Source: Candidatus Rariloculaceae bacterium
Lineage (GTDB): Bacteria; Pseudomonadota; Gammaproteobacteria; Steroidobacterales; Rariloculaceae
Length of the DNA: 64,000 nucleotides
Assembly (NCBI GenBank): GCA_965262365.1
Contig: OZ253541.1
Location: 1,092,614 to 1,156,613, forward strand
Direction of reading: 5' to 3'
Position 1 is the stretch's first letter, and each line of letters starts with the position of its first letter. The notes beneath the pieces were generated by a model that saw nothing but the letters and a program-made list of their open reading frames with translations, was not told where the DNA came from and did no database searches. Below, piece by piece: positions 5,722-20,034 of this stretch. The translations under genes were made by a program, and so were the position numbers.

Positions 5722-8265
5722 TCAGAACGAATAGTTGAGTCGCAGTCCGAGTTCCCGGGGCAGTCGCGGCCTGTAGCGGCAGTTGGCTTGCGACGCACCG
5801 CGGCCCGGAAGGCTGCGGTCTCTCCAGCCGCACTGCACGTCCAGGACCGAATCGTCGTCGGTCAGGTTGGCGCCGTACAAAATGACGTCCCAGTTGTCGT
5901 TTGCGAAGGACAACTGGCCGTTGACCAGCGTTTGAGGCGCCAGCTCCATGAGGTTGATGATGTCGCGGTATTGCGGCCCCTGATAGCGCAGGCCCAGGCG
6001 TCCCGTCCACTCCCAGCCGCTGCCGATCATGCCGGTATAGGATCCGGACAGCGTACCGGAAACCTCGGATACCTCCTCGATATGCTTTCCGGAGACATCG
6101 ACACAGTCGGCGATGACGCCGTGCTCCTCCACCGTGTAGTCCGGCTCAAGACCAAAATCGCCGACCGACTCCGGATCGCAGTTTTCCGCGAATACGTTGT
6201 TCTGCAATGCCAGGCTGCTGCGGAAGGACCAGTTGTCGGTAGCCCGCCACGTCGCCTCGAACTCCAGGCCCTTGAGGTCGCCGTCGCCGCGGTTGGTCTG
6301 GGTGCCCGGGTCGAAGTCGTCATCCTCGCCGAAGCTCACGCCGTTGTACGAGAAACCGTCGGGCGCGTTGGGGTCGAGATAGGCGTCGAGCCAGCCGGGA
6401 TCATAGAGGTTCAGATCGAGCCCGAGACCCAGGATCATGTCCTGCCAGTCCATGGCGTAGGCGGTCGCGGCAAGTTGCAGCCGCCCGTCGAGGGCGTTGC
6501 CCTTGATGCCGACTTCAAAGTTGGTCAGTTTCTCCTCGGTCGAGGAGACGAAATCGTCCGCGTTAAAGGAGATGATGCCCGCGGCCTGCGCCGCATAGAA
6601 GGCAGCCTTGACGCCGGGGTCCGCAAGTTCCGGGGTACTGGTGGCCGGGTTGGTTCCGCTTGAATACTGGGCATAGACCGACCATTCGTCGTTGAGCGCG
6701 TGATTGAGGGCAAGACGCGGCTGGAACGAATCCGTCACCTGCGCGATCACCGTGCCGCCCACCACCTCGATGGTGGTTCTGTCATCGCGTTGCATGCGTC
6801 CTTCGAAAGAGAGCGTCGTGGTATCCGAGAAGTCGTAGGTAATATTGCCGTAAGCGCCCGTGGCGGTGGTCTCGTTGAACTGGCGGCGGTCCGGTTCGAA
6901 CGGCTCGCAGTCGTTGATCTTGCATTCCAGGTCCAGTTCCGGATATTCGATGGCGGCAATTTGGAGGAAAGTGTCGTCCTTGTGGGTGAATTCGAAGACC
7001 GAGACGCCGGCCAGCCAGCGCAACGGCGCGTCGCCCGGCGAAACCCAGCGGATGTCGAAGTAAGTCTCGTCCCGATTCCTGGGGCTGCCCATATTATTGG
7101 AGGTCGCCCGGCTGACGGCGCCCCGCTGGATTCGCGGCGGTGTGTCGGTCATGTCGCCGTCGTGCCAGCGCAAGGCTTCTTCCTCGTGGTAGGAGGCGAT
7201 CAACTGAACAAAGCTGCCGTCGTCCATGGAAAAGTTGAATTCCCCTTGAATCCGCGAACGATCGGCTCGGACCGTGGGATCGATCACGCTGACCGACTGG
7301 GCGATGTAGAAGTCTTGCGTTCCCGGCTCGAAATAAGTCGTCAGGTCGTGGTTGCGGCGCGGCTGCAAACCGTCGATCTGGCAATTGAACTCGCCTGCGA
7401 CGTAGGGAACGCGATTGGCAAGGACGTGATTGAGGCAGGCCTCGCGAGCATCCGCCGGCAGGAGCAGTTCGTTGGACGGTCCATCGTTGTGCGACAACTG
7501 CGAAACGTTAATTTCCATGTCGAAGCGGTCGTTCGGGGTGTACTTGAGTTTCGCCGCGATGTAGTCCGTAGCCGTACTGCCCGTCTGTACGCCATCGTTT
7601 GCGATCCACTCCTCAGGACCATCGAATTCCTCCGAAACGACGTCGAGGGTATAGCCTAGCGTGTCCGAAATAGGGCCATCGAGGGCGAGACCCAGAATGG
7701 TGCGGTTCTGGTTCGAGAAGGTGGTCTTGATCGTTGAGTTCTGTTCCTCGCCGGGATCGCGGGTGACGAAGTTGATCGCCCCGGAGAACGTCGCGCGGCC
7801 GAAGGCCGAGCTTTGCGGACCGCGCAACACTTCGATTCGTTCGAGGTCGCCGAACCGATAGGGTGACGCGTTGCCGAGGATGGGTGCACCGTCGATGAAG
7901 ACGCTCATCTTCTGGTTGAGGGCATTCTGGGCCGTCTGCTGCACGCCGCGAATCGTTGGGCTGGTACCCAGCCGGTCCCGGCGTTCCTCATACTCGACGC
8001 CCGGCGTCTCCGCATAGAGATCGAAGTGATCCAGGACGGTTGCTCCCTGGATGAAATCGTCGGTCAGCACCGAAATAGCAACCGGGACGTCCTGGAGACT
8101 CTCTTCTCGTCGCCGGGCGGTGACCAGGACTTCTTCCAGCAAGGCGTCCGCGCCCGCTTCCTGCGCTTGCGTGGTCGGCACAGCAAGCAGTGCCAGGGTT
8201 GCAGCAGTTCCAAAGGCTGCCAACCCGATCGCTTCGATTCGCCGTAATTTTTCGTTTAAACGCAT
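5722..8265 (-). CDS. TonB-dependent receptor paralog 2
   Basis: ORF 5722..8283. ATG 8265 gives the signal peptide MRLNEKLRRIEAIGLAAFGTAATLALLAVPTTQAQ. Plug start LEEVLVTARRREESLQDVPVAISV; C-terminal LRLNYSF. Confidence 0.9.
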   Translation of the reverse strand: MRLNEKLRRIEAIGLAAFGTAATLALLAVPTTQAQEAGADALLEEVLVTARRREESLQDVPVAISVLTDDFIQGATVLDHFDLYAETPGVEYEERRDRLGTSPTIRGVQQTAQNALNQKMSVFIDGAPILGNASPYRFGDLERIEVLRGPQSSAFGRATFSGAINFVTRDPGEEQNSTIKTTFSNQNRTILGLALDGPISDTLGYTLDVVSEEFDGPEEWIANDGVQTGSTATDYIAAKLKYTPNDRFDMEINVSQLSHNDGPSNELLLPADAREACLNHVLANRVPYVAGEFNCQIDGLQPRRNHDLTTYFEPGTQDFYIAQSVSVIDPTVRADRSRIQGEFNFSMDDGSFVQLIASYHEEEALRWHDGDMTDTPPRIQRGAVSRATSNNMGSPRNRDETYFDIRWVSPGDAPLRWLAGVSVFEFTHKDDTFLQIAAIEYPELDLECKINDCEPFEPDRRQFNETTATGAYGNITYDFSDTTTLSFEGRMQRDDRTTIEVVGGTVIAQVTDSFQPRLALNHALNDEWSVYAQYSSGTNPATSTPELADPGVKAAFYAAQAAGIISFNADDFVSSTEEKLTNFEVGIKGNALDGRLQLAATAYAMDWQDMILGLGLDLNLYDPGWLDAYLDPNAPDGFSYNGVSFGEDDDFDPGTQTNRGDGDLKGLEFEATWRATDNWSFRSSLALQNNVFAENCDPESVGDFGLEPDYTVEEHGVIADCVDVSGKHIEEVSEVSGTLSGSYTGMIGSGWEWTGRLGLRYQGPQYRDIINLMELAPQTLVNGQLSFANDNWDVILYGANLTDDDSVLDVQCGWRDRSLPGRGASQANCRYRPRLPRELGLRLNYSF

Positions 8266-8520
8266 GACTTCACCCTCGTCCATCTCGCAAATGTCTGACG
8301 CTCAATGTCTAATTCTGCCTGTATCGAAGAAAACACAATCAACCGAAGAGCATAGCTTGAACGTGTAGTGAGGAAAACAAGAATGCATGTCCAGAAATGT
8401 CGGTCGTAATGCATTTTGGTTATGACGCCGGTCTTTTTGTCGTCATGGCGCACCTGGGGGGGGTAGAACGCCTCATTTGTAGCTACGGTACAACGCACAT
8501 TTCGCGTCATGGCAAACCCG

Positions 8521-8588: not shown

Positions 8589-11108
8589 TCAGAACGAATA
8601 GTTAAGCCGAAGTCCGAACTCCCGCGGGATACGCGGACGATACCGCCAGCTCCATTGTCGCCCGACCCTGTTATCCCTGTAGTCATCGAGATCCAGCGGC
8701 GTGTCCTCGTTGGTGAGGTTGTTGCCGAACAGGATGACATCCAGGTTGTTGTTACTGAGGGTGATCTGACCCGTAACAGTCGTTGAGGCGGGAAGCTCGA
8801 GCCAGTTCATGACGTCATAGAACTTCGGACCCTGGTGGCGAACGCCAAGACGTCCGGTCCACTGCCAGGCGCCGCCGAGCGACCCGGCGTAGGCTGCCGA
8901 AAACGTGCCGGAGGTCTCCGCATTTCGTTCGATTTCATTGCCGGCCACTTCGTAGCAGTCGGCCCCCCTGACGGTGTCTGTCGGCTCGAATCCGAAGGTC
9001 TCGACCGGCTGGACGTCGCAGTTCTGAGCGTATTTGTTGTCCTGCAACGCCAGCGAGCCCCGCAGGGACCAATTGTCGGTTGCCCGCCAGTTCGCCTCGA
9101 CCTCGACGCCCTTCAGGTCGCCTTCACCCTGGTTGATCCGTACGCCGGTGGCGTGGGCGTCTTCGTCGGAATAGATCACGCCATTGGAGTGGGCGCCGTC
9201 GTTCCAGCAGTTGGAGATGCCCGCGCAACTCCCGTCGACCGGGGGGTTACCCAACCAGTCGAATGTGTGGCTCAATAACATGTCTGTCCAGTCAATGACA
9301 TACACGGAGGCCGCAAGCTGCAGCCGGCCGTCGAGCGTGTTGCCCTTGATCCCGAACTCGACGTTGGTCAGTGTCTCTTCATCCGACGAAGCAAAGGTAG
9401 CGGCGGTGTAAGTGATAACACCCGCGTCGAAAGCCGCCTGAGTGCTCGCCTGTATCACTGGATTGATCAGCTCCGGCGTGGTCGTGGCAGGGCTCGTTCC
9501 CTGGGCTAGCTGGCCGTAAAGGGACCAGTCATCGTTGAGGGCGTGAGTGATGGCCAGGCGCGGTTGAAAGGAGTCCGTGACCTGGGTGATCGAACGGCCG
9601 CTGACCGTGTCCAGCGTGAATTGTTCATCTCGCTGAAAGCGTCCCTCGAAGGAGAGCGTCGTCCGGTCGCTGAGATCGTAGGTGACGTTACCGTAGACAC
9701 CCGTCGCCATGGTTGTGAGATTCTGCCGCCGATCCGGCGGGAAATCCATGCAGTCGTTGATAAGACACTGCAGACCCAGGTCCGGGAACTCGACTCCGGC
9801 AAACTGGTTGATGGCCGCGTCATTGAAGGCAAACTCGAAGCTGGATACGCCCACCAACCATCGAAGCGAGGAGTCCGCGGGAGAGAGCCAGCGAACGTCT
9901 ACGTATTCTTCCCTGTCGGTCTTGCGGCGGTTGCCCATGTTTCCCGTGAGCATGGAGCTGAACGTGCCCCTGCTGGTGATCGTGGGGGCATCGCTCATAT
10001 CCGAGTCGATCCAGCGTCTCGTGTTGTCGAAGGCGGATGCCACGATTGCTTGAAGCAGGCCGCCATTATCGAAGCTGAAATTGAATTCGCCGGCAATTCT
10101 CTGCCGATCCTGGGTTGCGCCCGGGCGCAGCACGCTCTCCGACCACGCCAGATTGTAGGCGTCGGTGCCCTCTTCATACTCCCCGCGCAGATCGTGATTC
10201 CGCGGGTTGAGTCCCTCGTACTGCTCGCATTTCCACTCTCCACGCACATAACCTCGCCCGTTGGGAAGTTCGGTGTTGTTGCAAGTGTCGATAGTGTCCG
10301 AAGCGATCAGGAATTCACTGCCGGGACCGTCGTCCCCCAACGTGCGGGCAGCCGTTATTTCCATGTCGAAAAAGTCATTGGGCGTGAATTTCAGCTTGCC
10401 GGAAAAGTATTCGGTCAGCGTGCTTCCCGACCGGTAGCCGTCGGTGGTGATCCACTCGTCCGGCGCACCCCAGTCCTCCTGAACGACGTCGAGCGTGAAT
10501 CCCAACGAATCGGTGATCGGACCCTCCAGCGCCACGCCGAGGATGGTGCGATTCTGGTTCGAGGCCGTGGCCTTCACTGATCCGCTGAATTGATCGCCGG
10601 GATCCCGAGTCACGTAGTTGACGGCGCCCGCGAATGTCGCACGTCCGAACGCGGCACTCTGGGGGCCGCGCAGAACTTCGATCCGCTCAAGATCGATGAA
10701 CTGCATCGACGCATTGGTACCGAAGATCGGCGCCCCGTTGATGAAGATGGATACCTTCTGATTGGCCGGGCCCTGGGAACCGGGGTTGATTCCGCGGATG
10801 GTCGTCCTGGACCCCAGCCGTTCCCGGGTTTGTTCGAAGTCGACACCGGGCGTCTCGGCGTAGAGATCGAAGGTATCCATGATATTCGCCTCCTGGACGA
10901 AATCCATGGTCATTACGGTGATGGCGACGGGAACATCCTGCAGGCTCTCTTCGCGCCGGCGGGCCGTGACCAGGATCTCCTCGAGGAGATTATCTTCAGC
11001 CAATTGAGCTCGCGCAGGTGCGGTTGGCGCAAGCGCCAGCCCCATTGCCGCAATACCGAAGGCGCTGAGATAAACCACCGAGCGCCGTGCGAAATAAATT
11101 CCAGACAT
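8589..11108 (-). CDS. TonB-dependent receptor paralog 3
   Basis: ORF 8589..11141. ATG 11108 gives MSGIYFARRSVVYLSAFGIAAMGLALAPTAPARAQ. Plug start LEEILVTARRREESLQDVPVAITV; C-terminal LRLNYSF. Confidence 0.9.
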   Translation of the reverse strand: MSGIYFARRSVVYLSAFGIAAMGLALAPTAPARAQLAEDNLLEEILVTARRREESLQDVPVAITVMTMDFVQEANIMDTFDLYAETPGVDFEQTRERLGSRTTIRGINPGSQGPANQKVSIFINGAPIFGTNASMQFIDLERIEVLRGPQSAAFGRATFAGAVNYVTRDPGDQFSGSVKATASNQNRTILGVALEGPITDSLGFTLDVVQEDWGAPDEWITTDGYRSGSTLTEYFSGKLKFTPNDFFDMEITAARTLGDDGPGSEFLIASDTIDTCNNTELPNGRGYVRGEWKCEQYEGLNPRNHDLRGEYEEGTDAYNLAWSESVLRPGATQDRQRIAGEFNFSFDNGGLLQAIVASAFDNTRRWIDSDMSDAPTITSRGTFSSMLTGNMGNRRKTDREEYVDVRWLSPADSSLRWLVGVSSFEFAFNDAAINQFAGVEFPDLGLQCLINDCMDFPPDRRQNLTTMATGVYGNVTYDLSDRTTLSFEGRFQRDEQFTLDTVSGRSITQVTDSFQPRLAITHALNDDWSLYGQLAQGTSPATTTPELINPVIQASTQAAFDAGVITYTAATFASSDEETLTNVEFGIKGNTLDGRLQLAASVYVIDWTDMLLSHTFDWLGNPPVDGSCAGISNCWNDGAHSNGVIYSDEDAHATGVRINQGEGDLKGVEVEANWRATDNWSLRGSLALQDNKYAQNCDVQPVETFGFEPTDTVRGADCYEVAGNEIERNAETSGTFSAAYAGSLGGAWQWTGRLGVRHQGPKFYDVMNWLELPASTTVTGQITLSNNNLDVILFGNNLTNEDTPLDLDDYRDNRVGRQWSWRYRPRIPREFGLRLNYSF

Positions 11109-11443
11109 GATGCCGTCCCCTGTATTCTCGATCGCTTGCAAACTGAAAACATCGGTTGCCCGTGTCAGAGGCGCGACAACCGCGACGGCGGATCATAGCG
11201 TGTTCACGCTAGTTAGAAAAGCCAATGACTTCACTTGTGGCGGCTGCGCAACCCGAGCTCATTATCTGGGTTTTTCCAGTCATGCAAATTTCTTATGAAG
11301 TAACACGCGGCGCAGACACTCTGGTATCGTCGGCAAGGATGGCTCTGCGCGTCTCGCCGTGGAGCGTCCGCAACTGAACCGGGGAATTCATCGCGGAATG
11401 GGAAGCAACCGATGTTGGCATTATCGTCTAAACTGGCTCAATC

Positions 11444-12340
11444 ATGAAACCCGGAATATTTCAGATCTTCGGGCTGGCCCTGTTGCTGGCAATCTCGATC
11501 GATTCGGGAATGGCCCAGGTCGATATCGCCAACATGTGGCGTCCGCTGCCCCACAATCAGGACGGTAGCGGGATGATCGGCGATGCCGCCGGCGTGCCGA
11601 TTAGCGAAGATGGGCATTGGCGGGCGGAGAGCTGGTCGCCCGAGCAGTTCGACATGGCTGAGTGGGTCTGTCGACCCCACGCCTGGGACTACTCGCTCGA
11701 GGGACCGCTGGCCCAGGTGCGTTTCGCGGCGCAATACGACCAGGCCACCCAGGGAGTCGAGGCTTACCTGGGCCACATCTATATGCAGTGGCAGCAGCAG
11801 ACCATCTGGATGGATGGTCGCGAGCATCCGCCTGAGAACGCGCCGCACACCTGGAGCGGTTTTACGACGGGCGAGTGGCAGGGGGACGTCCTGGTGACGA
11901 CCACAACGCATGTCAAGGCAGACTACATCCGGCGCTGGGGTCTGGTGCGTAGCGACCGGACCGCGGTGAGGACGCACTGGCGGCGTATTGGGGAGGACTA
12001 CCTCCAGGCGACGGTGATCATGTACGACCCCGTCTACCTCACGGAGCCCTACAGCCGCAGCTCCTTGATCTGGATCAAGGATCCCGGGCTCGCGATGGAC
12101 CCGTATCCCTGCGAAGAGGCAACCGAAACCGCCGTGCCAAAGGGTTCCGTTGCGCATTTTCTACCCGGTGAGAGCTACATGCCGGCATACGATCCCGAGC
12201 GATCGGATCCTTTTGGGACGCCCTATGAAGCGAGAATGGGGGGGGCTGAAAGCATGTATCCGGACTACATCGAGCAGATGGAGACGATGGAGGTATCGGA
12301 CGCGGCTCCCGATCCGGCCGACGTACGCGGGACACCTTGA
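11444..12340 (+). CDS. exported stand-alone C-module protein (divergent member)
   Basis: Signal peptide MKPGIFQIFGLALLLAISIDSGMAQ. Motifs: VCRPHAW ... WSGFTTGEWQGDVLVTTTTH ... IMYDPVYLTEPY ... PYPC. Confidence 0.75.
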   Translation: MKPGIFQIFGLALLLAISIDSGMAQVDIANMWRPLPHNQDGSGMIGDAAGVPISEDGHWRAESWSPEQFDMAEWVCRPHAWDYSLEGPLAQVRFAAQYDQATQGVEAYLGHIYMQWQQQTIWMDGREHPPENAPHTWSGFTTGEWQGDVLVTTTTHVKADYIRRWGLVRSDRTAVRTHWRRIGEDYLQATVIMYDPVYLTEPYSRSSLIWIKDPGLAMDPYPCEEATETAVPKGSVAHFLPGESYMPAYDPERSDPFGTPYEARMGGAESMYPDYIEQMETMEVSDAAPDPADVRGTP

Positions 12341-12341
12341 G

Positions 12342-13340
12342 ATGACTTCGACGAGCAGCAGATTGTTCTCTCCCGGCCTCTGGCTCGCAGGCGTGCTCAT
12401 GACCGGCGCGCAAGCGCAGACGTGGTCGCCGCCGCTGCGCGGCGCGGCGGAAGGGGAAGTCCAGATCCTCCACGTGAAGGGCAGCGTCTACATGCTGGCA
12501 GGATCCGGTGGCAACATCGCCGTGCAGGTAGGCGAGCAGGGGACTCTGCTGGTGGATACCGGCAGCGCCGCCATGACCGACGCGGTGCTCGCTGCGATCG
12601 AGACCATCACGCCCGAGCCCGTGCGCTACATCGTCAATACGAGCTACGCCGTGGACTACACTGGCGGCAACGCGGCGATTGCGGCCGCGGGACGAAAAAC
12701 GCTTCCGTTCCGTGGTGCGGGCAGTTCCAGCGTGCAGGGGCAGTTCGGCGCGGACAAGGCGTCCGTCGTCTCTTACTACACCGTCTTTCACCGGATGGCG
12801 GCACCGCCCGGCGACTGGGAGCCGAGAGAGGAAGGTGCTTGGCCGGACAATACGTTCTCGATTCCACTGAAGCGGCTCTATTTCAACGATGAGCCGGTGA
12901 TGATCATGCACCAACCATCCACCACCGATGGCAACAGCCTGGTCCTGTTTCGCAAGTCCGATGTGGTGGCGGCGGGCGCCCTTCTGAATCTTGAAACCTT
13001 CCCCGTCATCGAAGTCGACGCCGGGGGGAGCGTCCAGGCGGTCGTCGAAGGCCTGAACGGGCTGATCGACCTGGCCGTCCCCAGCGGGCGGTCGGAAGGC
13101 GGGACGCTGGTCATCCCGGGTCACGGCCGGATCGCGGACTTTGCGGAAATCGCTCAGCAACGCGACATGATGACCGCCATTCGCGACCGGGTTCAGAACA
13201 TGACCGACAAGGGAATGACACTGACCGAGGTTATCGAGGCCGGACCCACCCGCGGGTACGATGCGCGTTACGGACGCGACACCGGTCCGTGGACGACCGA
13301 AATGTTTGTCGAGGCCGTGTACAGGAGCCTGACCAAGTAG
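12342..13340 (+). CDS. exported MBL-fold protein with degenerate metal-binding motif
   Basis: ATG 12342 lies 1 nt after the upstream stop. Signal peptide ...GVLMTGAQAQ. MBL-like blocks GTLLVDTGS and VIPGHG are present, but the HxHxDH position reads NTSYAVDYTGGN and the later HTDGD position reads STTDGN. Confidence 0.75.
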   Translation: MTSTSSRLFSPGLWLAGVLMTGAQAQTWSPPLRGAAEGEVQILHVKGSVYMLAGSGGNIAVQVGEQGTLLVDTGSAAMTDAVLAAIETITPEPVRYIVNTSYAVDYTGGNAAIAAAGRKTLPFRGAGSSSVQGQFGADKASVVSYYTVFHRMAAPPGDWEPREEGAWPDNTFSIPLKRLYFNDEPVMIMHQPSTTDGNSLVLFRKSDVVAAGALLNLETFPVIEVDAGGSVQAVVEGLNGLIDLAVPSGRSEGGTLVIPGHGRIADFAEIAQQRDMMTAIRDRVQNMTDKGMTLTEVIEAGPTRGYDARYGRDTGPWTTEMFVEAVYRSLTK

Positions 13341-13360
13341 TCGCTCCAAGGAGACTTTCG

Positions 13361-13762
13361 ATGAAGAGATTCTTCCCATTGAGGCTGGCGTTGTTTGTCG
13401 GGGGCGCCCTTTTTCTGGCCGTTGCCGGGCGTGTCGTCGCGCATCATTCGTTTGCGGCGACCTATCAGGCGGATGGCCGGATCGAGATCGAAGGCACCGT
13501 CAAGGAACTCGTCTGGCGAAACCCGCATTCTTTTCTAAGGATCGATGTCACGGACGACGATGGGAATATCCAGACGTGGTCACTGGAATGGACGTCCGCG
13601 AATCGGCTCTCGGGCAGCAACCTGACCCGCACGACGCTCCGTCCGCTGGACGTTGTCGTCGCGACCGGAAGTCCGGCTCGAAATCCGGAATCGCCCCGCC
13701 TCCTGCTGCGGCAGTTGAGGCGACCCAGTGACGGTTGGGAGTGGATCGGTGATATCGACTGA
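13361..13762 (+). CDS. exported stand-alone N-module protein (resembles what I recall as the uncharacterised DUF6152 family)
   Basis: ATG 13361 lies 7 nt after AAGGAG. MKRFFPLRLALFVGGALFLAVAGRVVA then HHSFAATYQADGRIEIEGTVKELVWRNPH. 133 aa. Confidence 0.8.
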   Translation: MKRFFPLRLALFVGGALFLAVAGRVVAHHSFAATYQADGRIEIEGTVKELVWRNPHSFLRIDVTDDDGNIQTWSLEWTSANRLSGSNLTRTTLRPLDVVVATGSPARNPESPRLLLRQLRRPSDGWEWIGDID

Positions 13763-14552
13763 CAGGTGTACTTCCTGTCGTCTCGTTGTCGTCCTGGCGG
13801 CGATGCTCGGACTTGGCGGGGCGCCCGCCCTGGCACAGGACGGCGTCCGACCCACCGGCAGGGCAGCGATGCCCCCGGACCAGGATCCGACGGGTTATTG
13901 GGTCTCGGTGGTCACTCAACACTGGCACTATCGAATGCGGATGCCGCCGAGGGGCGACTTCGCCAAGATTCCCATGAGCGCGGAGGGCCGGCGGATTTTC
14001 GACGCCTGGGACCCGCTCGCCGATCAGGCCAACGGCGAGGAGTGCCGGGCCTATGGCGCGGGCAATATCATGCGCATTCCGGGACGCCTGCACATCCACT
14101 GGGCGGGCGACAATACGCTGCAGATCGATACGGACTCCGGGACGCAGACCCGTCTCCTGCAGTTTGCTCCCGACATGCCCGCGGAACAGGTCGCGCCGTC
14201 CTGGCAGGGACGATCCTTCGCAGGCTGGGTCGGGCGCGAGGGCGCGCCGGAGGGTGACCGGTACGCGGATCAGAACGATCCCAACGCGCCCCGCTACCTG
14301 GCCGTGTCGACGACACGGCTTCGCCCCGGCTACCTGCTGAAGAACGGCGTGGCGTACAGCGAAAGCAGCAGGCTTGAAGAATACTTCTACACATTTATGG
14401 AACCCAACGGCGACACCTGGCTGGTGGTGACGACGATCATCACGGACCCCGAGTATCTGTCCCGGCCCCACGTCACCAGCAATCAGTTCAAGAAGCTCCC
14501 GAACGACTCGGGCTGGGATCCGACTCCCTGTCGGATAGATCACCCGCGTTAG
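13728..14552 (+). CDS. exported stand-alone C-module protein (divergent member)
   Basis: ATG 13728 overlaps the upstream gene by 35 nt. Signal ...VVVLAAMLGLGGAPALAQ. Motifs: ECRAYGAG ... WQGRSFAGW ... TWLVVTTIITDPEYLSRP ... PTPC. The start codon is uncertain. Confidence 0.7.
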   Translation: MTVGSGSVISTDRCTSCRLVVVLAAMLGLGGAPALAQDGVRPTGRAAMPPDQDPTGYWVSVVTQHWHYRMRMPPRGDFAKIPMSAEGRRIFDAWDPLADQANGEECRAYGAGNIMRIPGRLHIHWAGDNTLQIDTDSGTQTRLLQFAPDMPAEQVAPSWQGRSFAGWVGREGAPEGDRYADQNDPNAPRYLAVSTTRLRPGYLLKNGVAYSESSRLEEYFYTFMEPNGDTWLVVTTIITDPEYLSRPHVTSNQFKKLPNDSGWDPTPCRIDHPR

Positions 14553-14598: not shown

Positions 14599-15624
14599 AT
14601 GATTCGTCCAAGCATTCTTGCAGTGACTTTTTTCTTTGCGGGTGCTGCCTCGGCGCATCACGCGTTCAGCGCCTTCTACGACACTGACAATGTCGGGGAA
14701 ATTGAGGGCGAAGTCATCGAGACTTTCTGGATCAACCCGCACGCGGGCTTCAGGATCCGGACGGACGACGGGGAAGTCTGGAACATCGAGACTGCGCCGG
14801 TGAATCGCCTGCAACGCCTCGGGCTCGCCGAGTCGGTCAGCGTGGGCGACCGTGTCGGATTTGTCGGTGCGTTTTCGCGCCTCGGAAGAAACGAGGTGCT
14901 CGCAACCAACATGATCATGCCCGGTGGCGAAGAAGTTCTTCTTGATCCGGGTTTTGCACGGCGACTGGGTTTGGGGGACAGGGTTTCCGGAGCCGGTGGG
15001 TCCGGAGCCGGTGGGTCCGGGGCTGTCTCGGACATCGGCAGCGATGAACCCAACGGCATCTACCGCGTCTGGACCCGGGCGCGCAGTCCGGAAGACCGCG
15101 ACCCCGAGCGTACGCTGACCGAGGCGTCACTGGCCGCCGTGGAAGCGTGGGATCCGGTAACCGACGACCCCGCGTTGCGCTGCGAAGCGCCCGGTATGCC
15201 GGTGGCCATGGATACGCCGTTTCCCTTTGCGCTCGAGGAAGGTGACGGGCAGATCCTGATGCGTATCGAGCAGTGGGATGGGCTGCGAACGATCCACATG
15301 GGACCCGGGGCAGCGGAGGAAGACCCGGAAGATTCGCTCATGGGACATTCGGTGGGACGCTGGGAAGGGCAGACTCTGGTGGTCGAAACGACGGACATAA
15401 GCTGGCCGTACGTCGACGAGTTCGGTACCCCGAAGAGCGACGAGTACACGCTGGTTGAGCGTTTAACCTTCAGCGAGGACAACACTGCGATGACATGGGA
15501 GGCCACCGCGACGGATCCGGCAACCTACGTCGGACCGGCCTTTCTGGGCAGCATCAGTTACGCCTGGGTGCCGGGAGAAGAGATCAAGCCCTACAACTGC
15601 ACCATCGCCGGGGAAGCGCTCTAG
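14599..15624 (+). CDS. exported two-module protein (fused N- and C-modules joined by a Gly/Ser linker)
   Basis: MIRPSILAVTFFFAGAASA then HHAFSAFYDTDNVGEIEGEVIETFWINPH. Linker SGAGGSGAGGSGAVS. C-half LRCEAPGMP ... GHSVGRWEGQTLVVETT ... ATDPATY ... PYNC. Confidence 0.85.
   Translation: MIRPSILAVTFFFAGAASAHHAFSAFYDTDNVGEIEGEVIETFWINPHAGFRIRTDDGEVWNIETAPVNRLQRLGLAESVSVGDRVGFVGAFSRLGRNEVLATNMIMPGGEEVLLDPGFARRLGLGDRVSGAGGSGAGGSGAVSDIGSDEPNGIYRVWTRARSPEDRDPERTLTEASLAAVEAWDPVTDDPALRCEAPGMPVAMDTPFPFALEEGDGQILMRIEQWDGLRTIHMGPGAAEEDPEDSLMGHSVGRWEGQTLVVETTDISWPYVDEFGTPKSDEYTLVERLTFSEDNTAMTWEATATDPATYVGPAFLGSISYAWVPGEEIKPYNCTIAGEAL
14996..15034 (+). repeat. 15-bp tandem duplication (TCCGGAGCCGGTGGG x2 plus a partial third copy) encoding the inter-module linker
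   Basis: Two exact 15-mers at 14996..15010 and 15011..15025, followed by TCCGGGGCT. Confidence 0.9.
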
Positions 15625-15672: not shown

Positions 15673-16065
15673 ATGGTTGACCAGGATACGTCGCTGGAGG
15701 AAATCCTTGGCACGCGGCAGCCCGGAATCAGACTGTACGGAATCTTCATGAAGCCCACCGGCAGGATGCTGGAGATGCGCGGCACGCCGGAACTGGATGA
15801 AATGCGCCGGCAGGCGTTCGTCTACCTCTGGCAGTTGGAGGAACGGAACAAGCTGCTGCTGGCAGGCCCGTTCGAGGAGGGAACATCCCGACAGGAAGGC
15901 ATGATGCTGCTGAATGTGGACAGCATCGAAGAGGCGCAGGCCATCGCCGCCGCCGAACCCATGCACAAGGCCGGCTGGCGCACCAACACCGTCAGGTCTT
16001 TCGCGCTCAACGAGGGCTTGCTGGTCGACTCCGTGCGGTCGTTGACCGGGTCGTCGGATTCGTAA
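15673..16065 (+). CDS. YciI-like protein
   Basis: FVYLWQLEERNKLLLAGPF ... GMMLLNVDSIEEAQAIAAAEPMHKAGW matches the YciI-family pattern (H..yl..L...G.l..aGP ... s.eeA ... DP...aG). Confidence 0.6.
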   Translation: MVDQDTSLEEILGTRQPGIRLYGIFMKPTGRMLEMRGTPELDEMRRQAFVYLWQLEERNKLLLAGPFEEGTSRQEGMMLLNVDSIEEAQAIAAAEPMHKAGWRTNTVRSFALNEGLLVDSVRSLTGSSDS

Positions 16066-16068
16066 GCC

Positions 16069-17640
16069 ATGGCGACCTCGATCAAGACCATCCGCGCCGC
16101 GGCCGGCGCCGACACCGAGGCATTCCGGCTGCGGCGCTTCATCGCCGATCTCGAGCAGGCGGGCGAACTGGAAACCTGTTCCGAGGCGCTCCAGCCGGCG
16201 GCCATCTCCGAACGCATGGAGGGCAACCGCAATGCGGTCTGGTTCACCCATGTCGGTGCCGAGAAGGCCGAAGTCATCGGCAACGTCATGGGGTCAAGAT
16301 CCCGCATCGCCGTCGCTTTCGGCGTCGGTTTGGGAGAGTTGCTGGACGAGATCCGGTCGCGATTAAAGGCGCCCCAGGCGCTCGTTGAGGTTGCCGCCGC
16401 GGATGCTCCGGTGCAGGAAGACGTTCTGACCGGGGAGGCGGCCGATCTGACGAAACTGCCGGTGCCTTTTCAGCACGGTCTCGACGGAGCGCCCTACCTG
16501 TCGTCGCCGATCGATGTAGTCATGGATCCCGCCACCGGGCTGTACAACGTCGGTTGCCGGCGGCTGATGCTGCGCGGCCGGCGCAGTTGCGGCGTCGACC
16601 TGAATGCGCCCAGCGATCTCAAGGCGATTTACGAGGACGCCGTGCAGGCCGGCCGGCCGTTACCGGTGAGCTTTGTTCTGGGCGCTCATCCCATCGATCA
16701 CTTCACCGGTGCGATGCGCGCGCCAGGCGACGAACTGGAACTGATGGCGAAGCTGCGCGGCGTTCCCATGCCGGTCGTGAAGTGCGTCACCAACGACCTG
16801 CTCGTGCCCGCTGATGCGGAATGCATTCTGGAGGGCTTCCTGAGTCCGGAGGGGCACGTGGAAGATGAGGGCCCGTACGGGGAGTTCCTCGGTTACTACG
16901 GCGGCGTCAAGCGCAACCCGGTCTTTCACCTCACGGCGATCACGCGGCGCAAGGATGCCCTGTTCCAGACGACATCCATCGCCGGCCGGCACATGAGCTG
17001 CACGGATACGGCTCAACTGGTGGCATTGAAGGCTGAGCTGGGCCTGTGGGGCGCGTTGGCCACGGCCGTTCGAGATCCGGTCGCCGTATACGCGACCACA
17101 TCCAGCGGCGGATGCTTCCATGCGCGCGTCGCCCTCAAACAGCGTTCGCCCGGGGATGCACGCAATGCCATTGCCGCCGTACTGGGCAGTTTCATGAACG
17201 TGAAGCATGTCTTCGTCGTCGACGAAGACATCGATATTTTCGATGACGGACAGATGGACTGGGCCCTGGCGTCCCGCTTCCAGGCGGACCGCGATCTGGT
17301 GGTGCTCGAGGGCATGCGTCTGCCCCCCGTCGATCCGTCCATGGGGAACTCCAGGGTCAGCGCAAAGGCCGGTTTCGACCTGACGATTCCCTTTGCCGAG
17401 CGCGGCGACAGCGAATGGGCGGTGCCGGAGCCCCCTGATTTGACTCCCTCCGAAGTACGCTTCGAGTCGGTTGAGGCTGCGCTGCGCGATGGGCCCAGGC
17501 AATTCGAGGAATTGATGCAGTGTCTGGGATCCGCGGACGGGCGGGAAATCGTTATTGAACTTGAATCGTTGCGCGAGAGCGGACGCCTTTCCCGCCGTCG
17601 CCCGGACGGCCGGTATTCTCTAAATCAACTTTATAGTTAA
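16069..17640 (+). CDS. UbiD-family (prFMN-type) decarboxylase
   Basis: 523 aa, starting 3 nt after the YciI-like stop. Contains the UbiD-like block EDEGPYGEFLGYYGG, and the overall length and layout fit the family. Confidence 0.8.
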   Translation: MATSIKTIRAAAGADTEAFRLRRFIADLEQAGELETCSEALQPAAISERMEGNRNAVWFTHVGAEKAEVIGNVMGSRSRIAVAFGVGLGELLDEIRSRLKAPQALVEVAAADAPVQEDVLTGEAADLTKLPVPFQHGLDGAPYLSSPIDVVMDPATGLYNVGCRRLMLRGRRSCGVDLNAPSDLKAIYEDAVQAGRPLPVSFVLGAHPIDHFTGAMRAPGDELELMAKLRGVPMPVVKCVTNDLLVPADAECILEGFLSPEGHVEDEGPYGEFLGYYGGVKRNPVFHLTAITRRKDALFQTTSIAGRHMSCTDTAQLVALKAELGLWGALATAVRDPVAVYATTSSGGCFHARVALKQRSPGDARNAIAAVLGSFMNVKHVFVVDEDIDIFDDGQMDWALASRFQADRDLVVLEGMRLPPVDPSMGNSRVSAKAGFDLTIPFAERGDSEWAVPEPPDLTPSEVRFESVEAALRDGPRQFEELMQCLGSADGREIVIELESLRESGRLSRRRPDGRYSLNQLYS

Positions 17641-17670
17641 TCCGTCTAATTAGCTGATAAATAGAAACTT

Positions 17671-20034
17671 ATGCGCGACGATTCAAGCTCGCGGATGATC
17701 GGTCGACGGCTTCCACGACGGGAAGACGGTCGTCTGCTGACCGGCCAGGGGCGTTTCAGCGACGATGTCAACGTGGCAGGGCAATGCTATGCGCAGTTTG
17801 TCCGCTCGCCCTACGCCCATGCCGCGATAAACGGGGTCGACACCACCGATGCGTTGCTGTTGCCCGGCGTTGTCGCGATCCTCACCGGAGAGGACTGGAA
17901 CGCGGACGGCCACGGAAATATCTTTCACATCGCCGATCCGGCGGACGGCTGCGACCCCAAGACCAAGACATTCGCCGACCGCGGCGGGTTCGTATTCGAC
18001 GATGGCCAGCCCGTGATTGCTACGGACAAGGTGCGTCACGTGGGCGAACCGGTGGCGATCGTCGTGGCGGAGTCGGCGGATGCCGCCAAGGATGCCGTTG
18101 AACTGGTCATGGTCGACTACGACGAACTGCCGGCGGCATCGACCATCGACTCGGCACTGTCCGGGGATGCATGGCGCATTTGGGACGGTGCGCCCGGCAA
18201 CCTGTGCCTTGACACACTTATGTGGGACGAAGAATCCCAGGTCGAGTCTGCGTTTGGGAACGCGGCGCACGTGATCGAGCGGTCGTTCACGAACAACCGG
18301 ATCGCTGGCTGCCAGATGGAACCCAGGAGCGGCGTGGGCGACTACGATTCGGGGACTGGACGTTACTTCCTCTACGCCGGGAGCCAGGGATCCATTCGGC
18401 TCAAGAACGGTCTGATGAGGGTGTTTGGCGTATCGGCCGACAAGGTCAGGGTCGTTTCCGAAGATGTTGGCGGCGGGTTCGGTCCGCGCAACTTCCTCTA
18501 CCCGGACTTCGTCCTGCTGACCTGGGCCGCCCGCCGCACGGGACGCCCGGTCAAATGGACCTCGACTCGCGGTGAGGCCTTCCTGAGCGATACCCAGGGC
18601 CGCGACAATATCCTCAAGCTCGCCCTCGCGTTCGACGACCGGCACCGCCTGGCCGGGGTAAAGATGGATTTTCTGGCCAATATCGGCGCCGCGCCGGTTT
18701 CCTACGCACCGGTTCAGAACGTCGCGCGGCTGTGTACCACCGTGTACCACGCACCGGTGGCCCGTGCCCGGGTTCGCGGGGTGCTGACCAACACGGTCCC
18801 GACCGGACCCTATCGCGGAGCGGGCCGGCCCGAGATGATCTACGCATTCGAACGTCTGCTGGATACCTATGCTCGGGAACAGGGGATCGATCGAATCGAA
18901 CTACGGCGGCGTAACCTGATTCCGGCAGACGCATTGCCCTACAACGGCAGGACCGGGCTCAGCATCGACTCCGGCGAATTCGAGAAGAACATGGACATGG
19001 TCATGGAACTGGCGGACTGGAAGGGGTTCGATCGACGCCGCGAGCGGTCGGAGTCCTCGGGACGACTGCGTGGCATCGGGATTGCCAATTTCATGGAGAT
19101 ACCGGTCGGCTTCCCGCACGAAACCGCGGACCTGGCGGTAACCGGCGACGGTCGAGTGGAACTGACCGTCGGGACCCAGTCGATGGGCATGGGCCACGAG
19201 ACGGTGTTCGCGCAGGTTCTGGCGGACCGGTTGGGTGTGCCGCTGGACTGTGTCGATCTCCTGACCGGGGACACCGACCTGACCGGACTGGGCGGTGGGG
19301 CCCACTCGGACCGCTCCATGCGGCTGGTGGGGACGCTCATGGTCGAAGCCGCTGCGTCGCTCATAGCCAGGGCCAGGGGGCTCGCCTCCCGGGTTCTTGG
19401 GGTCTCGGAAGAGGAAGTATCTTTCGTGGACGGCAACTTTGTCGGGGGGCAATCAGGGAGCGTGAGCCTGTTCGAACTCGCGGCGCTGCTGGAGTCCGGA
19501 GACGTTTCCGGTCATGGGTCCGCAAAGCTGACCGTCAGGGAGGTCATTCACGATCGCTTGCCCGCGTTCCCGAACGGCTGCGCCTGTTCGGAAGTGGAGG
19601 TGGACCCTGAAACCGGCGAGGTCGAGTTGGTGCGCCACTCGCTCATCCACGACGCGGGCCTGGAAATCAACCCGATGATCGTGGAAGGGCAGGGCCACGG
19701 CGGTATCGCACAGGGCATCGGCCAGGCGATTTGCGAGGACTTCATCTACGAAGAGTCCGGCGCGCAGATTCTCTCGGGAAGCTTCATGGACTACTGCCTG
19801 CCCCGGGCAGACGATCTGCCCAATTTCGATCTCGGTTCCAACCCCACCGCGGCCGCGAGCAACCCGCTCGGCGTGAAGGGCGGAGGGGAGGGCGGCACCA
19901 CACCGGCGCTGGGCGCCTTCTTCAATGCGCTGCATGACGCGCTCGAACCGCTGGGCATTCGGGAGATCCCCATGCCCGCCACGTCTAATCGGGTGTGGGA
20001 ATTGATCGCCCGGTCGCGTGTGGGCAACGCGTGA
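17671..20034 (+). CDS. xanthine dehydrogenase/aldehyde oxidase/CoxL-family molybdopterin-binding large subunit
   Basis: IGRRLPRREDGRLLTGQGRFSDDV N-terminus and TGPYRGAGRPE motif. 787 aa. No FeS or FAD subunit gene is adjacent. Confidence 0.85.
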   Translation: MRDDSSSRMIGRRLPRREDGRLLTGQGRFSDDVNVAGQCYAQFVRSPYAHAAINGVDTTDALLLPGVVAILTGEDWNADGHGNIFHIADPADGCDPKTKTFADRGGFVFDDGQPVIATDKVRHVGEPVAIVVAESADAAKDAVELVMVDYDELPAASTIDSALSGDAWRIWDGAPGNLCLDTLMWDEESQVESAFGNAAHVIERSFTNNRIAGCQMEPRSGVGDYDSGTGRYFLYAGSQGSIRLKNGLMRVFGVSADKVRVVSEDVGGGFGPRNFLYPDFVLLTWAARRTGRPVKWTSTRGEAFLSDTQGRDNILKLALAFDDRHRLAGVKMDFLANIGAAPVSYAPVQNVARLCTTVYHAPVARARVRGVLTNTVPTGPYRGAGRPEMIYAFERLLDTYAREQGIDRIELRRRNLIPADALPYNGRTGLSIDSGEFEKNMDMVMELADWKGFDRRRERSESSGRLRGIGIANFMEIPVGFPHETADLAVTGDGRVELTVGTQSMGMGHETVFAQVLADRLGVPLDCVDLLTGDTDLTGLGGGAHSDRSMRLVGTLMVEAAASLIARARGLASRVLGVSEEEVSFVDGNFVGGQSGSVSLFELAALLESGDVSGHGSAKLTVREVIHDRLPAFPNGCACSEVEVDPETGEVELVRHSLIHDAGLEINPMIVEGQGHGGIAQGIGQAICEDFIYEESGAQILSGSFMDYCLPRADDLPNFDLGSNPTAAASNPLGVKGGGEGGTTPALGAFFNALHDALEPLGIREIPMPATSNRVWELIARSRVGNA

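What the first reader, a model, noticed from the sequence alone, without database searches (positions are those of the whole stretch)
12342..13340. MBL-fold protein inside the cluster has lost most canonical metal ligands
The fold-defining blocks are present (GTLLVDTGS and a late VIPGHG). However, the HxHxDH signature position reads T-S-Y-A-V-D-Y (NTSYAVDYTGGN, where related proteins read NTHWHGDHTGGN as I recall). The next ligand region reads STTDGN instead of HTDGD, and the following GD reads GA. This suggests a binding or scaffold role, or different chemistry, rather than classical di-zinc hydrolysis. It is exported and embedded between the C-module and N-module genes. A second, intact-looking MBL (30745..31581) sits next to another member of the two-module family.
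Basis: partly seen in the sequence, partly recalled or inferred. Interest (0 to 1): 0.55.

Follow-up and report, generated by a model that had tools for sequence, protein, structure and literature searches.

The report
Metal-site-dead MBL-fold protein in module
This gene encodes an exported protein with a metallo-beta-lactamase shape that has lost almost all its metal-binding residues yet is still under selection, and it sits in the enzyme slot of a widespread, uncharacterised four-gene periplasmic module, so it most likely acts as a binding or partner subunit, not a zinc hydrolase.

Summary
Window 12342-13340 (+) encodes a 332-aa exported MBL-fold protein (Pfam PF00753 above cut-off; AF2 pLDDT 90; best Foldseek hit 8D2Z). 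At the seven canonical ligand columns it reads S116, A118, D120, Y121, T196, A221, H263. H263 is Arg in 18 of 22 clade members. Further family-conserved pocket residues are also replaced (AHEN>SYYT, HTDGD>TTDGN).

New context: the gene is the second gene of a four-gene module, C-module-1 > MBL > DUF6152 > C-module-2, found in at least 590 loci of GTDB species genomes. In 32 of the 84 loci examined the same slot holds a fully canonical HxHxDH/H/D/H protein. A neighbour-joining tree shows stepwise loss (7 > 4 > 1-2 ligands), with the window clade (Ca. Rariloculaceae) at the end.

The degenerate gene is under purifying selection (dN/dS 0.09-0.20, like its partners). Its replacement residues are invariant within the clade. 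C-module-1+MBL occurs as a natural fusion in about 21 of 150 family representatives, whatever the ligand state.

Best reading: a non-hydrolytic partner or binding subunit. A rival with novel-site catalysis is not excluded. No family name, solved structure or paper covers this module.

The parts
12342..13340 (+). Degenerate MBL-fold protein, 332 aa (the finding).
   Evidence: Translation. Pfam PF00753 27.2 bits. AF2 pLDDT 90.1. Foldseek 8D2Z E 3.8e-16. dN/dS 0.09-0.20.
12342..12416 (+). Predicted Sec signal peptide (aa 1-25, ...GAQA|QT).
   Evidence: Read from the sequence: one Arg, a hydrophobic stretch, then A-Q-A. pLDDT is about 50 over aa 1-30. Natural fusions align only from query residue about 26 onward. 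No signal-peptide predictor was available.
12636..12671 (+). Motif-2 region NTSYAVDYTGGN. Columns 116/118/120/121 read S/A/D/Y instead of H/H/D/H.
   Evidence: Alignments; column counts.
12771..12791 (+). Helix segment S144-Y-Y-T-V-F-H150. The family-conserved A-H-E-N is replaced by S-Y-Y-T, and a new lineage-specific invariant His150 appears.
   Evidence: The family H-E columns align to CphA F156/T157, which contact ligands docked into the CphA site (PMC9604271).
12918..12935 (+). Motif-3 region STTDGN. Column 196 is T194 instead of H, and the family-conserved final D is N198.
12978..12980 (+). Column 221 is A213 (GA instead of GD).
13122..13124 (+). Column 263 is H261 (VIPGHG). It is retained here but is Arg in 18 of 22 clade members.
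11444..12340 (+). C-module-1 protein (298 aa, exported, no known family). It is the upstream partner, and its TGA stop lies one base before the MBL ATG.
   Evidence: No Pfam, NCBIfam or PDB match. Immediately upstream in 65 of 82 loci. Fused to the MBL domain in about 21 of 150 representatives. Junction sequence.
13361..13762 (+). DUF6152 protein (N-module), with an AGGAG ribosome-binding site upstream.
   Evidence: Pfam PF19649 75.6 bits. Immediately downstream in 55 of 80 loci. P0168 is an MBL+DUF6152 fusion. Invariant A|HH and RNPHSF. Junction.
13728..14552 (+). C-module-2 protein, a paralogue of C-module-1. The exact start is uncertain.
   Evidence: Within 1.3 kb downstream of the MBL in 74 of 78 loci. 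Aligned with C-module-1 in A3.
14599..15624 (+). DUF6152+C-module fusion protein, next gene on the same strand (47 bases after the end of C-module-2).
   Evidence: Pfam PF19649 on aa 14-97. The C-terminal half aligns with the C-modules.
8589..11141 (-). TonB-dependent receptor, divergently transcribed from the module.
   Evidence: Pfam Plug and TonB_dep_Rec_b-barrel. Same arrangement in L001 and L003.
5722..8283 (-). Second TonB-dependent receptor.
   Evidence: Pfam Plug and TonB_dep_Rec_b-barrel.
15673..20034 (+). Downstream same-strand genes: YciI-like (15673-16065), UbiD-family decarboxylase (16069-17640) and xanthine-dehydrogenase-family molybdopterin subunit (17671-20034).
   Evidence: Pfam. 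Same order in L001 and L003.

Best explanation
The gene encodes a periplasmic MBL-fold protein that descends from a canonical binuclear-site hydrolase and has lost the metal site. It is kept as a non-hydrolytic subunit of a conserved four-protein periplasmic module: C-module-1, MBL, DUF6152, C-module-2.

Shown here:
1. The fold is MBL plus a C-terminal helical extension.
2. Five of seven ligand columns are non-ligands, and H263 is not conserved in the clade.
3. In other lineages the same operon slot holds a fully canonical MBL. The loss was stepwise: first the Zn1 set (116/118/196), then the Zn2 set (121/221/263).
4. The gene is under purifying selection equal to that of its partners. The replacement residues (Y106, Y146, T194, N198, A213) and a new His150 are invariant in the clade.
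5. C-module-1 and the MBL are separated by one base, and in many lineages they form one polypeptide whatever the ligand state.

Inferred:
- The protein binds no catalytic di-zinc centre.
- It forms a complex with C-module-1, and probably with the DUF6152/C-module-2 pair.
- Its remodelled, Tyr-lined former active-site pocket binds a small molecule without cleaving it. That molecule would be imported by the adjacent TonB-dependent receptors and would feed the downstream UbiD/molybdoenzyme catabolic genes.

The substrate is unknown.
For: - Fold: Pfam, profile against PDB, AF2 and Foldseek.
- Ligand columns agree across three alignment methods. The window pattern SADYTAH scores 2 of 7, and its sisters' pattern SADYTAR scores 1 of 7.
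- Further family-conserved pocket residues are lost (H145/E146/N147, D198).
- The same slot is canonical in 32 of 84 loci, and ligand states cluster on the tree. The window clade is nested in the 4-of-7 group, sister to L003 (TADHNDH), which has the identical operon.
- Purifying selection: dN/dS 0.09-0.20 for the MBL, against 0.06-0.26 for the partners. Identity of the MBL to orthologues tracks that of the partners.
- Synteny: 65/82, 55/80 and 74/78.
- Fusions: about 21 C-module-1+MBL representatives. They include 7/7 forms (P0232, P0214) and 1/7 forms (P0122, P0157, P0158), and in-frame fusions occur in L016 and L019. P0168 is MBL+DUF6152.
- The fusions align from query residue about 26 and leave no room for the MBL's own leader.
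- The upstream stop is one base before the start: TGA-G-ATG.
Against: - There is no direct evidence on metal content, activity or complex formation.
- D120 is invariant. H190 is conserved family-wide, and H150 is newly invariant. D196 and E184 are also conserved. A non-canonical mononuclear or metal-independent catalytic site therefore cannot be excluded.
- The strict conservation of the replacement residues fits a new catalytic site as well as a binding pocket.
- Fusion and synteny show functional linkage, not necessarily a stable complex.
Confidence: 0.55

Rival explanations
1. The protein is still an enzyme that uses a rebuilt, non-canonical site. This could be a mononuclear metal centre or metal-independent acid/base chemistry. 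Candidate residues are D105, H150, H190, D196 and H261/R261, with Tyr106 and Tyr146 as ligands or as catalytic/oxyanion residues.
For: - The replacement residues are invariant within the clade. A new invariant His150 appears exactly in the lineages that lost H116/H118/H196: 22/22 in the clade and 89/99 in the mid group, against N/T/A in canonical members.
- D120 is retained in 22/22 and H190 is conserved family-wide.
- dN/dS is low.
- The intermediate group keeps D120/H121/D221/H263. By established knowledge this resembles the single active Zn2 site of B2 enzymes and the Zn2 site of B3 enzymes. The family therefore seems to tolerate reduced metal sites.
Against: - In the window clade, H121, D221 and mostly H263 are gone as well, which leaves one canonical ligand in 18 of 22 sequences.
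- H261 alternates with Arg, which is not expected of an essential ligand.
- No known MBL-fold enzyme with this residue set was found in Pfam, NCBIfam or PDB.
- The conserved positions are equally explained by ligand binding or by an interface.
Confidence: 0.3
2. The gene is a decaying relic of the module's hydrolase and no longer has a function.
For: Most catalytic residues are lost. H263 varies between H and R within the clade.
Against: - The reading frame is intact.
- dN/dS of 0.09-0.20 against five relatives is the same as for the neighbouring genes.
- Conservation of 72-98% identity tracks that of the partners.
- 22 clade sequences and a 46-member 90% cluster are all full length.
- The replacement residues are invariant.
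Confidence: 0.03
3. The ligands are present but shifted, so the apparent loss is an alignment artefact and the protein has a normal di-metal site.
For: Sister sequences carry His at column 117 (NTSHA.DY). His150 and His190 exist outside the canonical columns.
Against: - The window protein has only four His and no Cys, too few for a HxHxDH/H/H site.
- The window itself has Tyr, not His, at column 117.
- Three alignment methods agree on the columns.
- Canonical relatives at 44-50% identity align without gaps across the motifs.
Confidence: 0.02

Closest known systems
PDB 8D2Z, 'Metallo-beta-lactamase superfamily protein' from Burkholderia cenocepacia (deposited structure; no paper found)
   Same: It is the best sequence and fold match: profile E 9.8e-21, and Foldseek E 3.8e-16 with TM 0.61/0.66 over about 300 residues. 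It has the same MBL core plus C-terminal helices. It also has an incomplete ligand set.
   Different: It is only 18% identical. It keeps H116/H118/H196 (SHYHAVR...GHTKGD) and lacks D120/H121, the opposite half-site to the one kept in this family. It has no known function, and its genomic context was not examined.
Subclass B2 metallo-beta-lactamases (CphA, Sfh-I)
   Same: They are the closest characterised enzymes by sequence (E about 4e-12 to the family profile). They share the NT..H.DR.GGN-type motif-2 context and a helix that lines the pocket. They naturally lack H116 (N116) and, by established knowledge, work with one zinc at the 120/221/263 site.
   Different: The window protein also lacks H118, H196, C/D221 and, in its clade, H263. 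NCBIfam B2 models score about 21 bits against cut-offs of 240-550. It has an extra insertion of about 50 residues and about 70 residues of C-terminal helices.
Type III alkylsulfatases (SdsA1, Pisa1)
   Same: The MBL domain is followed by helices that superpose on the alkylsulfatase dimerisation region (Foldseek E about 1e-13; local sequence hit aa 270-298 to Pisa1 369-397). Formylglycine-type sulfatases are encoded nearby in the window.
   Different: There is no SCP2-like third domain, no metal ligands, and no Pfam hit to the alkylsulfatase domains. Sequence identity is about 15%.
NCBIfam TIGR04558/TIGR04559, SoxH-related 'quinoprotein relay system zinc metallohydrolase 1/2'
   Same: This is the best curated-family hit for the window protein (54 bits over aa 57-303) and for canonical members of the family (79-97 bits). 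These are periplasmic MBL-fold proteins of unknown role found in conserved neighbourhoods. Some acidobacterial loci have PQQ dehydrogenases nearby.
   Different: The scores are far below the cut-offs of 280-300. The gene neighbourhood is different (C-modules and DUF6152).
CPSF100 and INTS9, the inactive MBL-fold partners of CPSF73 and INTS11
   Same: They work in a like manner in principle. Each is an MBL-fold protein that has lost its zinc ligands and is kept as an obligate structural partner within a complex (PMC7980224 appeared; the rest is established knowledge).
   Different: They are eukaryotic beta-CASP nucleases that pair with an active MBL paralogue. Here the partner is a non-MBL protein (the C-module), the location is the periplasm, and there is no homology beyond the fold.
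HARLDQ-motif MBL-fold proteins (NCBIfam NF000405; PDB 8VLC)
   Same: They are bacterial MBL-fold proteins in which HxHxDH is degenerate, and NCBI explicitly flags them as not being beta-lactamases.
   Different: They are a B3-derived lineage that keeps H116 and D120. They have no link to the C-module/DUF6152 module. The window protein does not match that model.

Membership tests
Metallo-beta-lactamase fold superfamily (Pfam PF00753 / clan) | Alpha-beta/beta-alpha sandwich fold, and a sequence match above Pfam's gathering score. | tested here: met
   PF00753 scores 27.2 bits against a cut-off of 22.7, on aa 56-121 only. The AF2 model has pLDDT 90.1. There are 552 Foldseek PDB hits at E<=1e-3, and all 50 listed are MBL-fold proteins.
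Metallo-beta-lactamase fold superfamily: catalytic members | Motif 2, H116-x-H118-x-D120-H121. | tested here: not met
   It reads S-Y-A-V-D-Y, so only D120 is kept.
Metallo-beta-lactamase fold superfamily: catalytic members | Motif 3 His196, motif 4 Asp/Cys221 and motif 5 His263. | tested here: not met
   T194 and A213 replace 196 and 221. H261 is present in the window but is Arg in 18 of 22 clade members.
Class B beta-lactamases (B1/B2/B3) | Score above the NCBIfam subclass cut-offs (200-240 bits). | tested here: not met
   B2 scores 20.8, B3 19.8 and B1 18.0 bits.
TIGR04558/TIGR04559 quinoprotein relay system zinc metallohydrolases | Score above the curated cut-off (300/280 bits). | tested here: not met
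   54.4 and 51.3 bits. Canonical family members also score only 49-97 bits.
Type III alkylsulfatase | MBL domain with a binuclear Zn site, plus a dimerisation domain and a C-terminal SCP2-like domain. | tested here: not met
   The protein ends after the helical extension at aa 332. The ligands are absent, and there is no Pfam hit for the C-terminal region. Only fold-level similarity was found.
Unnamed MBL subfamily of the C-module-1 / MBL / DUF6152 / C-module-2 module (defined here) | Full-length homology to the subfamily, including the C-terminal ...PTRxYDxRYG...WTT..FVEA.Y helices. | tested here: met
   361 representatives at E<=1e-30. 44-98% identity over about 300 aa to the 84 loci.
Unnamed MBL subfamily of the C-module-1 / MBL / DUF6152 / C-module-2 module (defined here) | Position between a C-module-1 gene and DUF6152/C-module-2 genes. 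| tested here: met
   Window gene order is 11444-12340, 12342-13340, 13361-13762, 13728-14552. The same order holds in 65/82, 55/80 and 74/78 loci.
Pseudoenzyme (catalytically dead homologue retained under selection) | Loss of the catalytic residues of an active ancestor, together with purifying selection. | tested here: met
   Stepwise loss on the tree from 7/7 relatives. dN/dS is 0.09-0.20.
Pseudoenzyme (catalytically dead homologue retained under selection) | Demonstrated absence of catalytic activity and of bound metal. | not testable with these tools
   This needs ICP-MS and enzyme assays on purified protein.

The most novel reading that the evidence does not exclude
The four genes C-module-1 / MBL / DUF6152 / C-module-2 encode a previously undescribed periplasmic machine. 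It is found in at least 590 loci across Acidobacteriota and Gammaproteobacteria. In this reading its chemistry sits in the DUF6152/C-module pair: DUF6152 matures to an invariant N-terminal His-His and, with a conserved RNPH motif, could form a histidine-brace-type metal centre. The MBL subunit's conserved job would be to capture or present substrate. In Ca. Rariloculaceae it would have been fully converted from a hydrolase into a metal-free receptor subunit, a bacterial periplasmic counterpart of the CPSF100/INTS9 type of pseudoenzyme.
Probability: 0.2. Interest if true: 0.75.

Novelty: new variant of a known kind. Interest (0 to 1): 0.5.

Why it matters
MBL-fold proteins are routinely annotated as 'MBL fold metallo-hydrolase'. 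That is the only source name found for this clade. Here the annotation is almost certainly wrong at the level of chemistry.

More usefully, the finding exposes a natural series within one orthologous operon slot: 7, then 4, then 1-2 metal ligands. This gives a ready-made comparative system for asking what an MBL subunit contributes once its metals are gone.

It also flags a widespread, completely uncharacterised periplasmic module. The C-module has no Pfam family and no solved relative, and DUF6152 is mentioned in no paper in the library. In the window and its closest relatives the module lies next to TonB-dependent receptors, and sulfatase genes occur in the window and in L001/L003. These bacteria are abundant soil and marine-sediment groups.

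The gene-fusion evidence tells an experimenter exactly which proteins to co-express.

Tried and rejected
- AF2 with a shallow 18-sequence alignment failed (pLDDT 39.7). It was repeated with 101 diverse sequences and succeeded.
- Literature searches found nothing relevant. '8D2Z' gave only irrelevant hits and 'DUF6152' gave none. 'metallo-beta-lactamase fold' with 'pseudoenzyme' gave only the Integrator paper. 'HARLDQ' gave nothing relevant to this family. The ActIV/cyclase search was swamped by 'activ...' matches. The JGI label 'cyclase' on many homologues is therefore treated as an untested automatic annotation.
- The C-module gave no hit in Pfam even at E<=10, none in NCBIfam, and none in PDB by sequence or by profile. 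DUF6152 gave no meaningful PDB hit.
- The C-terminal helices gave no Pfam hit.
- Rejected: pseudogene; shifted ligands (only four His); membership of the B1/B2/B3 or SoxH-related families.
- Rejected: the second window MBL as a same-family paralogue. hhalign probability is only 46% and covers only the N-terminal half.
- No second member of this MBL subfamily exists in the 64-kb window. Whether the genome has a canonical paralogue elsewhere could not be checked.
Full report
**1. The observation**

Window 12342-13340 (+) is an uninterrupted ORF of 332 codons. The longer ORF that starts at TTG 12150 is not the gene. Homologues of 332 aa cover the query from residue 1. The ATG at 12342 lies one base after the TGA of the upstream gene (ccTTGAgATGact).

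The N-terminus looks like a Sec leader: MTSTSSRLFSPGLWLAGVLMTGAQA|QT, with one Arg, a hydrophobic core and an A-x-A site. No signal-peptide predictor was available, so this is read from the sequence. Two results support it. The AF2 model has low confidence over residues 1-30. Natural fusion proteins align only from query residue about 26.

**2. It is an MBL-fold protein**

- Pfam PF00753 is above its gathering score (27.2 against 22.7 bits), but only for the N-terminal third (aa 56-121). That pattern is itself a symptom of the degenerate later motifs.
- A profile of 101 family members hits PDB 8D2Z at E 9.8e-21 and the B2 enzymes Sfh-I and CphA at about E 4e-12.
- AF2 with a shallow alignment failed (pLDDT 39.7). 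With 101 diverse sequences it gave pLDDT 90.1 and pTM 0.85.
- Foldseek against the PDB returns MBL-fold proteins: 8D2Z (E 3.8e-16, TM 0.61/0.66), the alkylsulfatases Pisa1 and SdsA1, BcII, chlorothalonil dehalogenase and LACTB2.
- The protein is therefore an MBL core plus about 70 residues of C-terminal helices, as in 8D2Z and the alkylsulfatase dimerisation region.

**3. The ligand columns**

Three independent alignments give the same register:
- phmmer against 8D2Z and Sfh-I;
- the family profile against CphA;
- hhalign of the family profile against the B3-like MBL encoded at 30745-31581.

| Standard class-B column | 116 | 118 | 120 | 121 | 196 | 221 | 263 |
|---|---|---|---|---|---|---|---|
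| Canonical | H | H | D | H | H | D/C | H |
| Window protein | S101 | A103 | D105 | Y106 | T194 | A213 | H261 |

The protein contains only four histidines (H44, H150, H190, H261) and no cysteine, so a hidden or shifted di-metal site is not possible.

In the 22 sequences of the >=70% identity clade the pattern is S/N, A/P, D, Y, T, A, and then R (18) or H (4). The one remaining His ligand of the window protein is thus not conserved even among its closest relatives.

Two further blocks conserved in the wider family are also replaced. A-H-E-N becomes S-Y/F-Y-T (aa 144-147), and the final Asp of HTDGD becomes Asn198. The H-E pair aligns with CphA F156/T157. These residues contact ligands docked into the CphA active site alongside H118, D120, H196 and H263 (PMC9604271). 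The substitutions therefore probably line the former substrate pocket. This is an inference, because model coordinates could not be read.

**4. What the family looks like**

The subfamily is large. There are 7092 representatives at 50% clustering with E<=1e-3, and 361 with E<=1e-30. At least 590 loci were found in GTDB species genomes.

It contains every degree of ligand retention:
- fully canonical NTH.H.DHTGGN...AAHTDGD...GD...PGHG;
- a frequent S/T-x-D-x-D-H variant (5 of 7);
- an x-x-D-H...N/T...D...H group (4 of 7, effectively only the Zn2-type half-site);
- the window clade (1-2 of 7).

No curated family covers even the canonical members. The best NCBIfam models are the SoxH-related 'quinoprotein relay system zinc metallohydrolases', at 49-97 bits against cut-offs of 280-300. 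The only source names found are the generic 'MBL fold metallo-hydrolase', 'glyoxylase-like metal-dependent hydrolase' and 'cyclase'.

**5. The genomic context is the key new result**

In the window the gene order is:
- C-module-1 (11444-12340, 298 aa, exported, no family);
- the MBL-like gene;
- DUF6152 (13361-13762, with an AGGAG ribosome-binding site);
- C-module-2 (13728-14552).

A DUF6152+C-module fusion, a YciI-like gene, a UbiD-family decarboxylase and a xanthine-dehydrogenase-family molybdopterin subunit follow on the same strand. Two TonB-dependent receptors are transcribed divergently upstream.

The first four genes recur as a unit in four metagenomic contigs and in the 80 genome loci. 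Across all 84 loci:
- C-module-1 lies immediately upstream in 65 of 82;
- DUF6152 lies immediately downstream in 55 of 80;
- C-module-2 lies within 1.3 kb downstream in 74 of 78.

In several of the exceptions C-module-1 has simply moved behind C-module-2.

The hosts are Ca. Rariloculaceae and other Gammaproteobacteria for the window clade. The remaining loci come mostly from Acidobacteriota (Vicinamibacterales, Acidiferrales, Bryobacterales), with some from Steroidobacteraceae.

**6. Same slot, canonical enzyme elsewhere**

In 32 of the 84 loci the MBL in this slot has all seven ligands.

A neighbour-joining tree groups the ligand states. There is a canonical group, with S/T-D-D-H variants nested inside it, and a 4-of-7 group. 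The window clade nests within the 4-of-7 group, next to L003. L003 is 69% identical, reads TADHNDH, and has the identical operon including YciI/UbiD/molybdoenzyme.

Outgroup MBLs carry the His ligands, which is established knowledge of the superfamily. The direction is therefore loss: first 116/118/196, later 121/221/263.

**7. The gene is maintained**

dN/dS of the degenerate gene against five relatives is 0.09-0.20. For C-module-1, DUF6152 and C-module-2 it is 0.06-0.26.

Its protein identity to orthologues tracks that of the partners. For example, L005 gives 84/85/94/88% and L007 gives 77/72/77/71%.

The replacement residues Y106, Y146, T194, N198, A213, S130 and S144 are invariant in the clade. 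A new His150 is invariant in exactly those lineages that lost H116/H118/H196 (22/22 and 89/99). Canonical members have N/T/A at that position.

This is a remodelled pocket, not a decayed one.

**8. Evidence for association with the neighbours**

About 21 of the 150 family representatives are proteins of about 600 aa. Their N-terminal 290 residues are C-module-1 (up to 60% identity to the window protein, E 5e-127) and their C-terminal half is the MBL domain. P0168 is MBL+DUF6152. The window itself carries DUF6152+C-module fusions. So all three pairwise fusions occur in nature.

The C-module-1+MBL fusions occur with canonical sites (P0232, P0214), 5-of-7 sites, and 1-of-7 sites (P0122 TGDYNGR, P0157, P0158). 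In-frame fusions are seen in L016 and in the Rariloculaceae genome L019.

The lengths of the fusions leave no room for the MBL's own leader peptide, which argues against read-through artefacts.

The association therefore does not depend on the metal site. That is what one expects if the MBL domain's conserved contribution is structural or ligand-binding.

**9. Mechanism proposed**

Shown: fold, ligand loss, direction of loss, selection, synteny and fusion.

Inferred:
- The mature protein is periplasmic and carries no catalytic di-zinc centre.
- It pairs with C-module-1.
- It uses its Tyr-lined former active site to hold a small molecule without cleaving it. That molecule would be taken up by the adjacent TonB-dependent receptors and would feed the downstream cytoplasmic UbiD/molybdoenzyme steps.

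I put this at 0.55.

The main rival (0.30) is that D105, H150, H190, D196 and the tyrosines form a new catalytic or mononuclear metal site. Sequence alone cannot separate these two readings. The relic gene (0.03) and misalignment (0.02) are effectively excluded.

**10. Comparison with what is known**

The protein is a member of the MBL fold superfamily. It is not a member of any named subfamily: B1/B2/B3, SoxH-related or alkylsulfatase were all tested and the cut-offs or defining features were not met.

In concept it works like the inactive MBL partners CPSF100 and INTS9, and it resembles the bacterial 'HARLDQ' non-lactamase B3 relatives. It differs from these in lineage, in partner (a non-MBL protein) and in compartment.

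No paper in the library mentions DUF6152 or 8D2Z in a relevant sense.

**11. Verdict**

The degenerate MBL is a new variant of a known kind, a pseudoenzyme-like MBL-fold protein. The more interesting object is the uncharacterised four-gene module in which it sits, together with the natural 7 > 4 > 1-2 ligand series in one orthologous slot.

Interest is 0.5.

Noticed in passing
window 13361-13762 (+); also the N-terminal modules of 4569-5615 (+), 14599-15624 (+) and 31777-32826 (-): In 58 module-linked DUF6152 homologues, A|HH at the predicted signal-peptidase site and RNPHSF about 27 residues later are invariant (58/58). The mature protein would start His-His, which suggests a histidine-brace-like or other N-terminal metal site. 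There are no papers on DUF6152.
   Followed up: partly
window 4569-5615 (+), 11444-14552 (+), 14599-15624 (+), about 24763-26042 (+), 31777-32826 (-): The 64-kb window holds five DUF6152/C-module units, three of them fused and two split. Only one of them is accompanied by an MBL of this subfamily. The unit at about 24.8-26.0 kb was seen only by tblastn and was not examined further.
   Followed up: partly
window 2844-4559 (+) and 4569-5615 (+); 30745-31581 (-) and 31777-32826 (-): DUF6152+C-module fusion genes sit directly next to exported hydrolases. A formylglycine-type sulfatase ends 10 bases before one fusion, and a B3-like MBL lies just downstream of another. This hints that the two-module proteins are general accessory partners of periplasmic hydrolases.
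   Followed up: no
window 30745-31581 (-): The 'intact' second MBL reads QGHWDH, with Gln at column 116 as in GOB-type B3 enzymes. It scores 114 bits against the NCBIfam subclass-B3 model (cut-off 240) and 153 bits against the CAR family (cut-off 500). It is B3-like but is not callable as a beta-lactamase.
   Followed up: partly
window 11444-12340 (+) and 13728-14552 (+): The C-module has no Pfam or NCBIfam family and no PDB relative, even by profile search. Two Cys (C76 and C223 of the first protein) are invariant across both paralogue types and the fusions, which is consistent with a periplasmic disulfide.
   Followed up: partly
window 12342-13340, residue His150 (DNA 12789-12791): A new invariant His appears in the lineages that lost H116/H118/H196 and is absent from canonical members. 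His190 (IMHQP) is conserved across the whole subfamily although it is not one of the seven canonical ligands.
   Followed up: partly
window 27559-29690 (+): A Mu-type transposase (HTH_32, rve, Mu-transpos_C) is followed by an AAA_22 ATPase, in a stretch with G+C of 0.69-0.70 against about 0.61 for the window. This is probably an inserted mobile element.
   Followed up: partly
window 15673-20034 (+) and 22051-23379 (-): YciI-like, UbiD-family decarboxylase and xanthine-dehydrogenase-family molybdopterin-subunit genes follow the module on the same strand. This order is conserved in L001 and L003. An MFS transporter gene lies nearby. No partner FAD or 2Fe-2S subunit genes were looked for.
   Followed up: no
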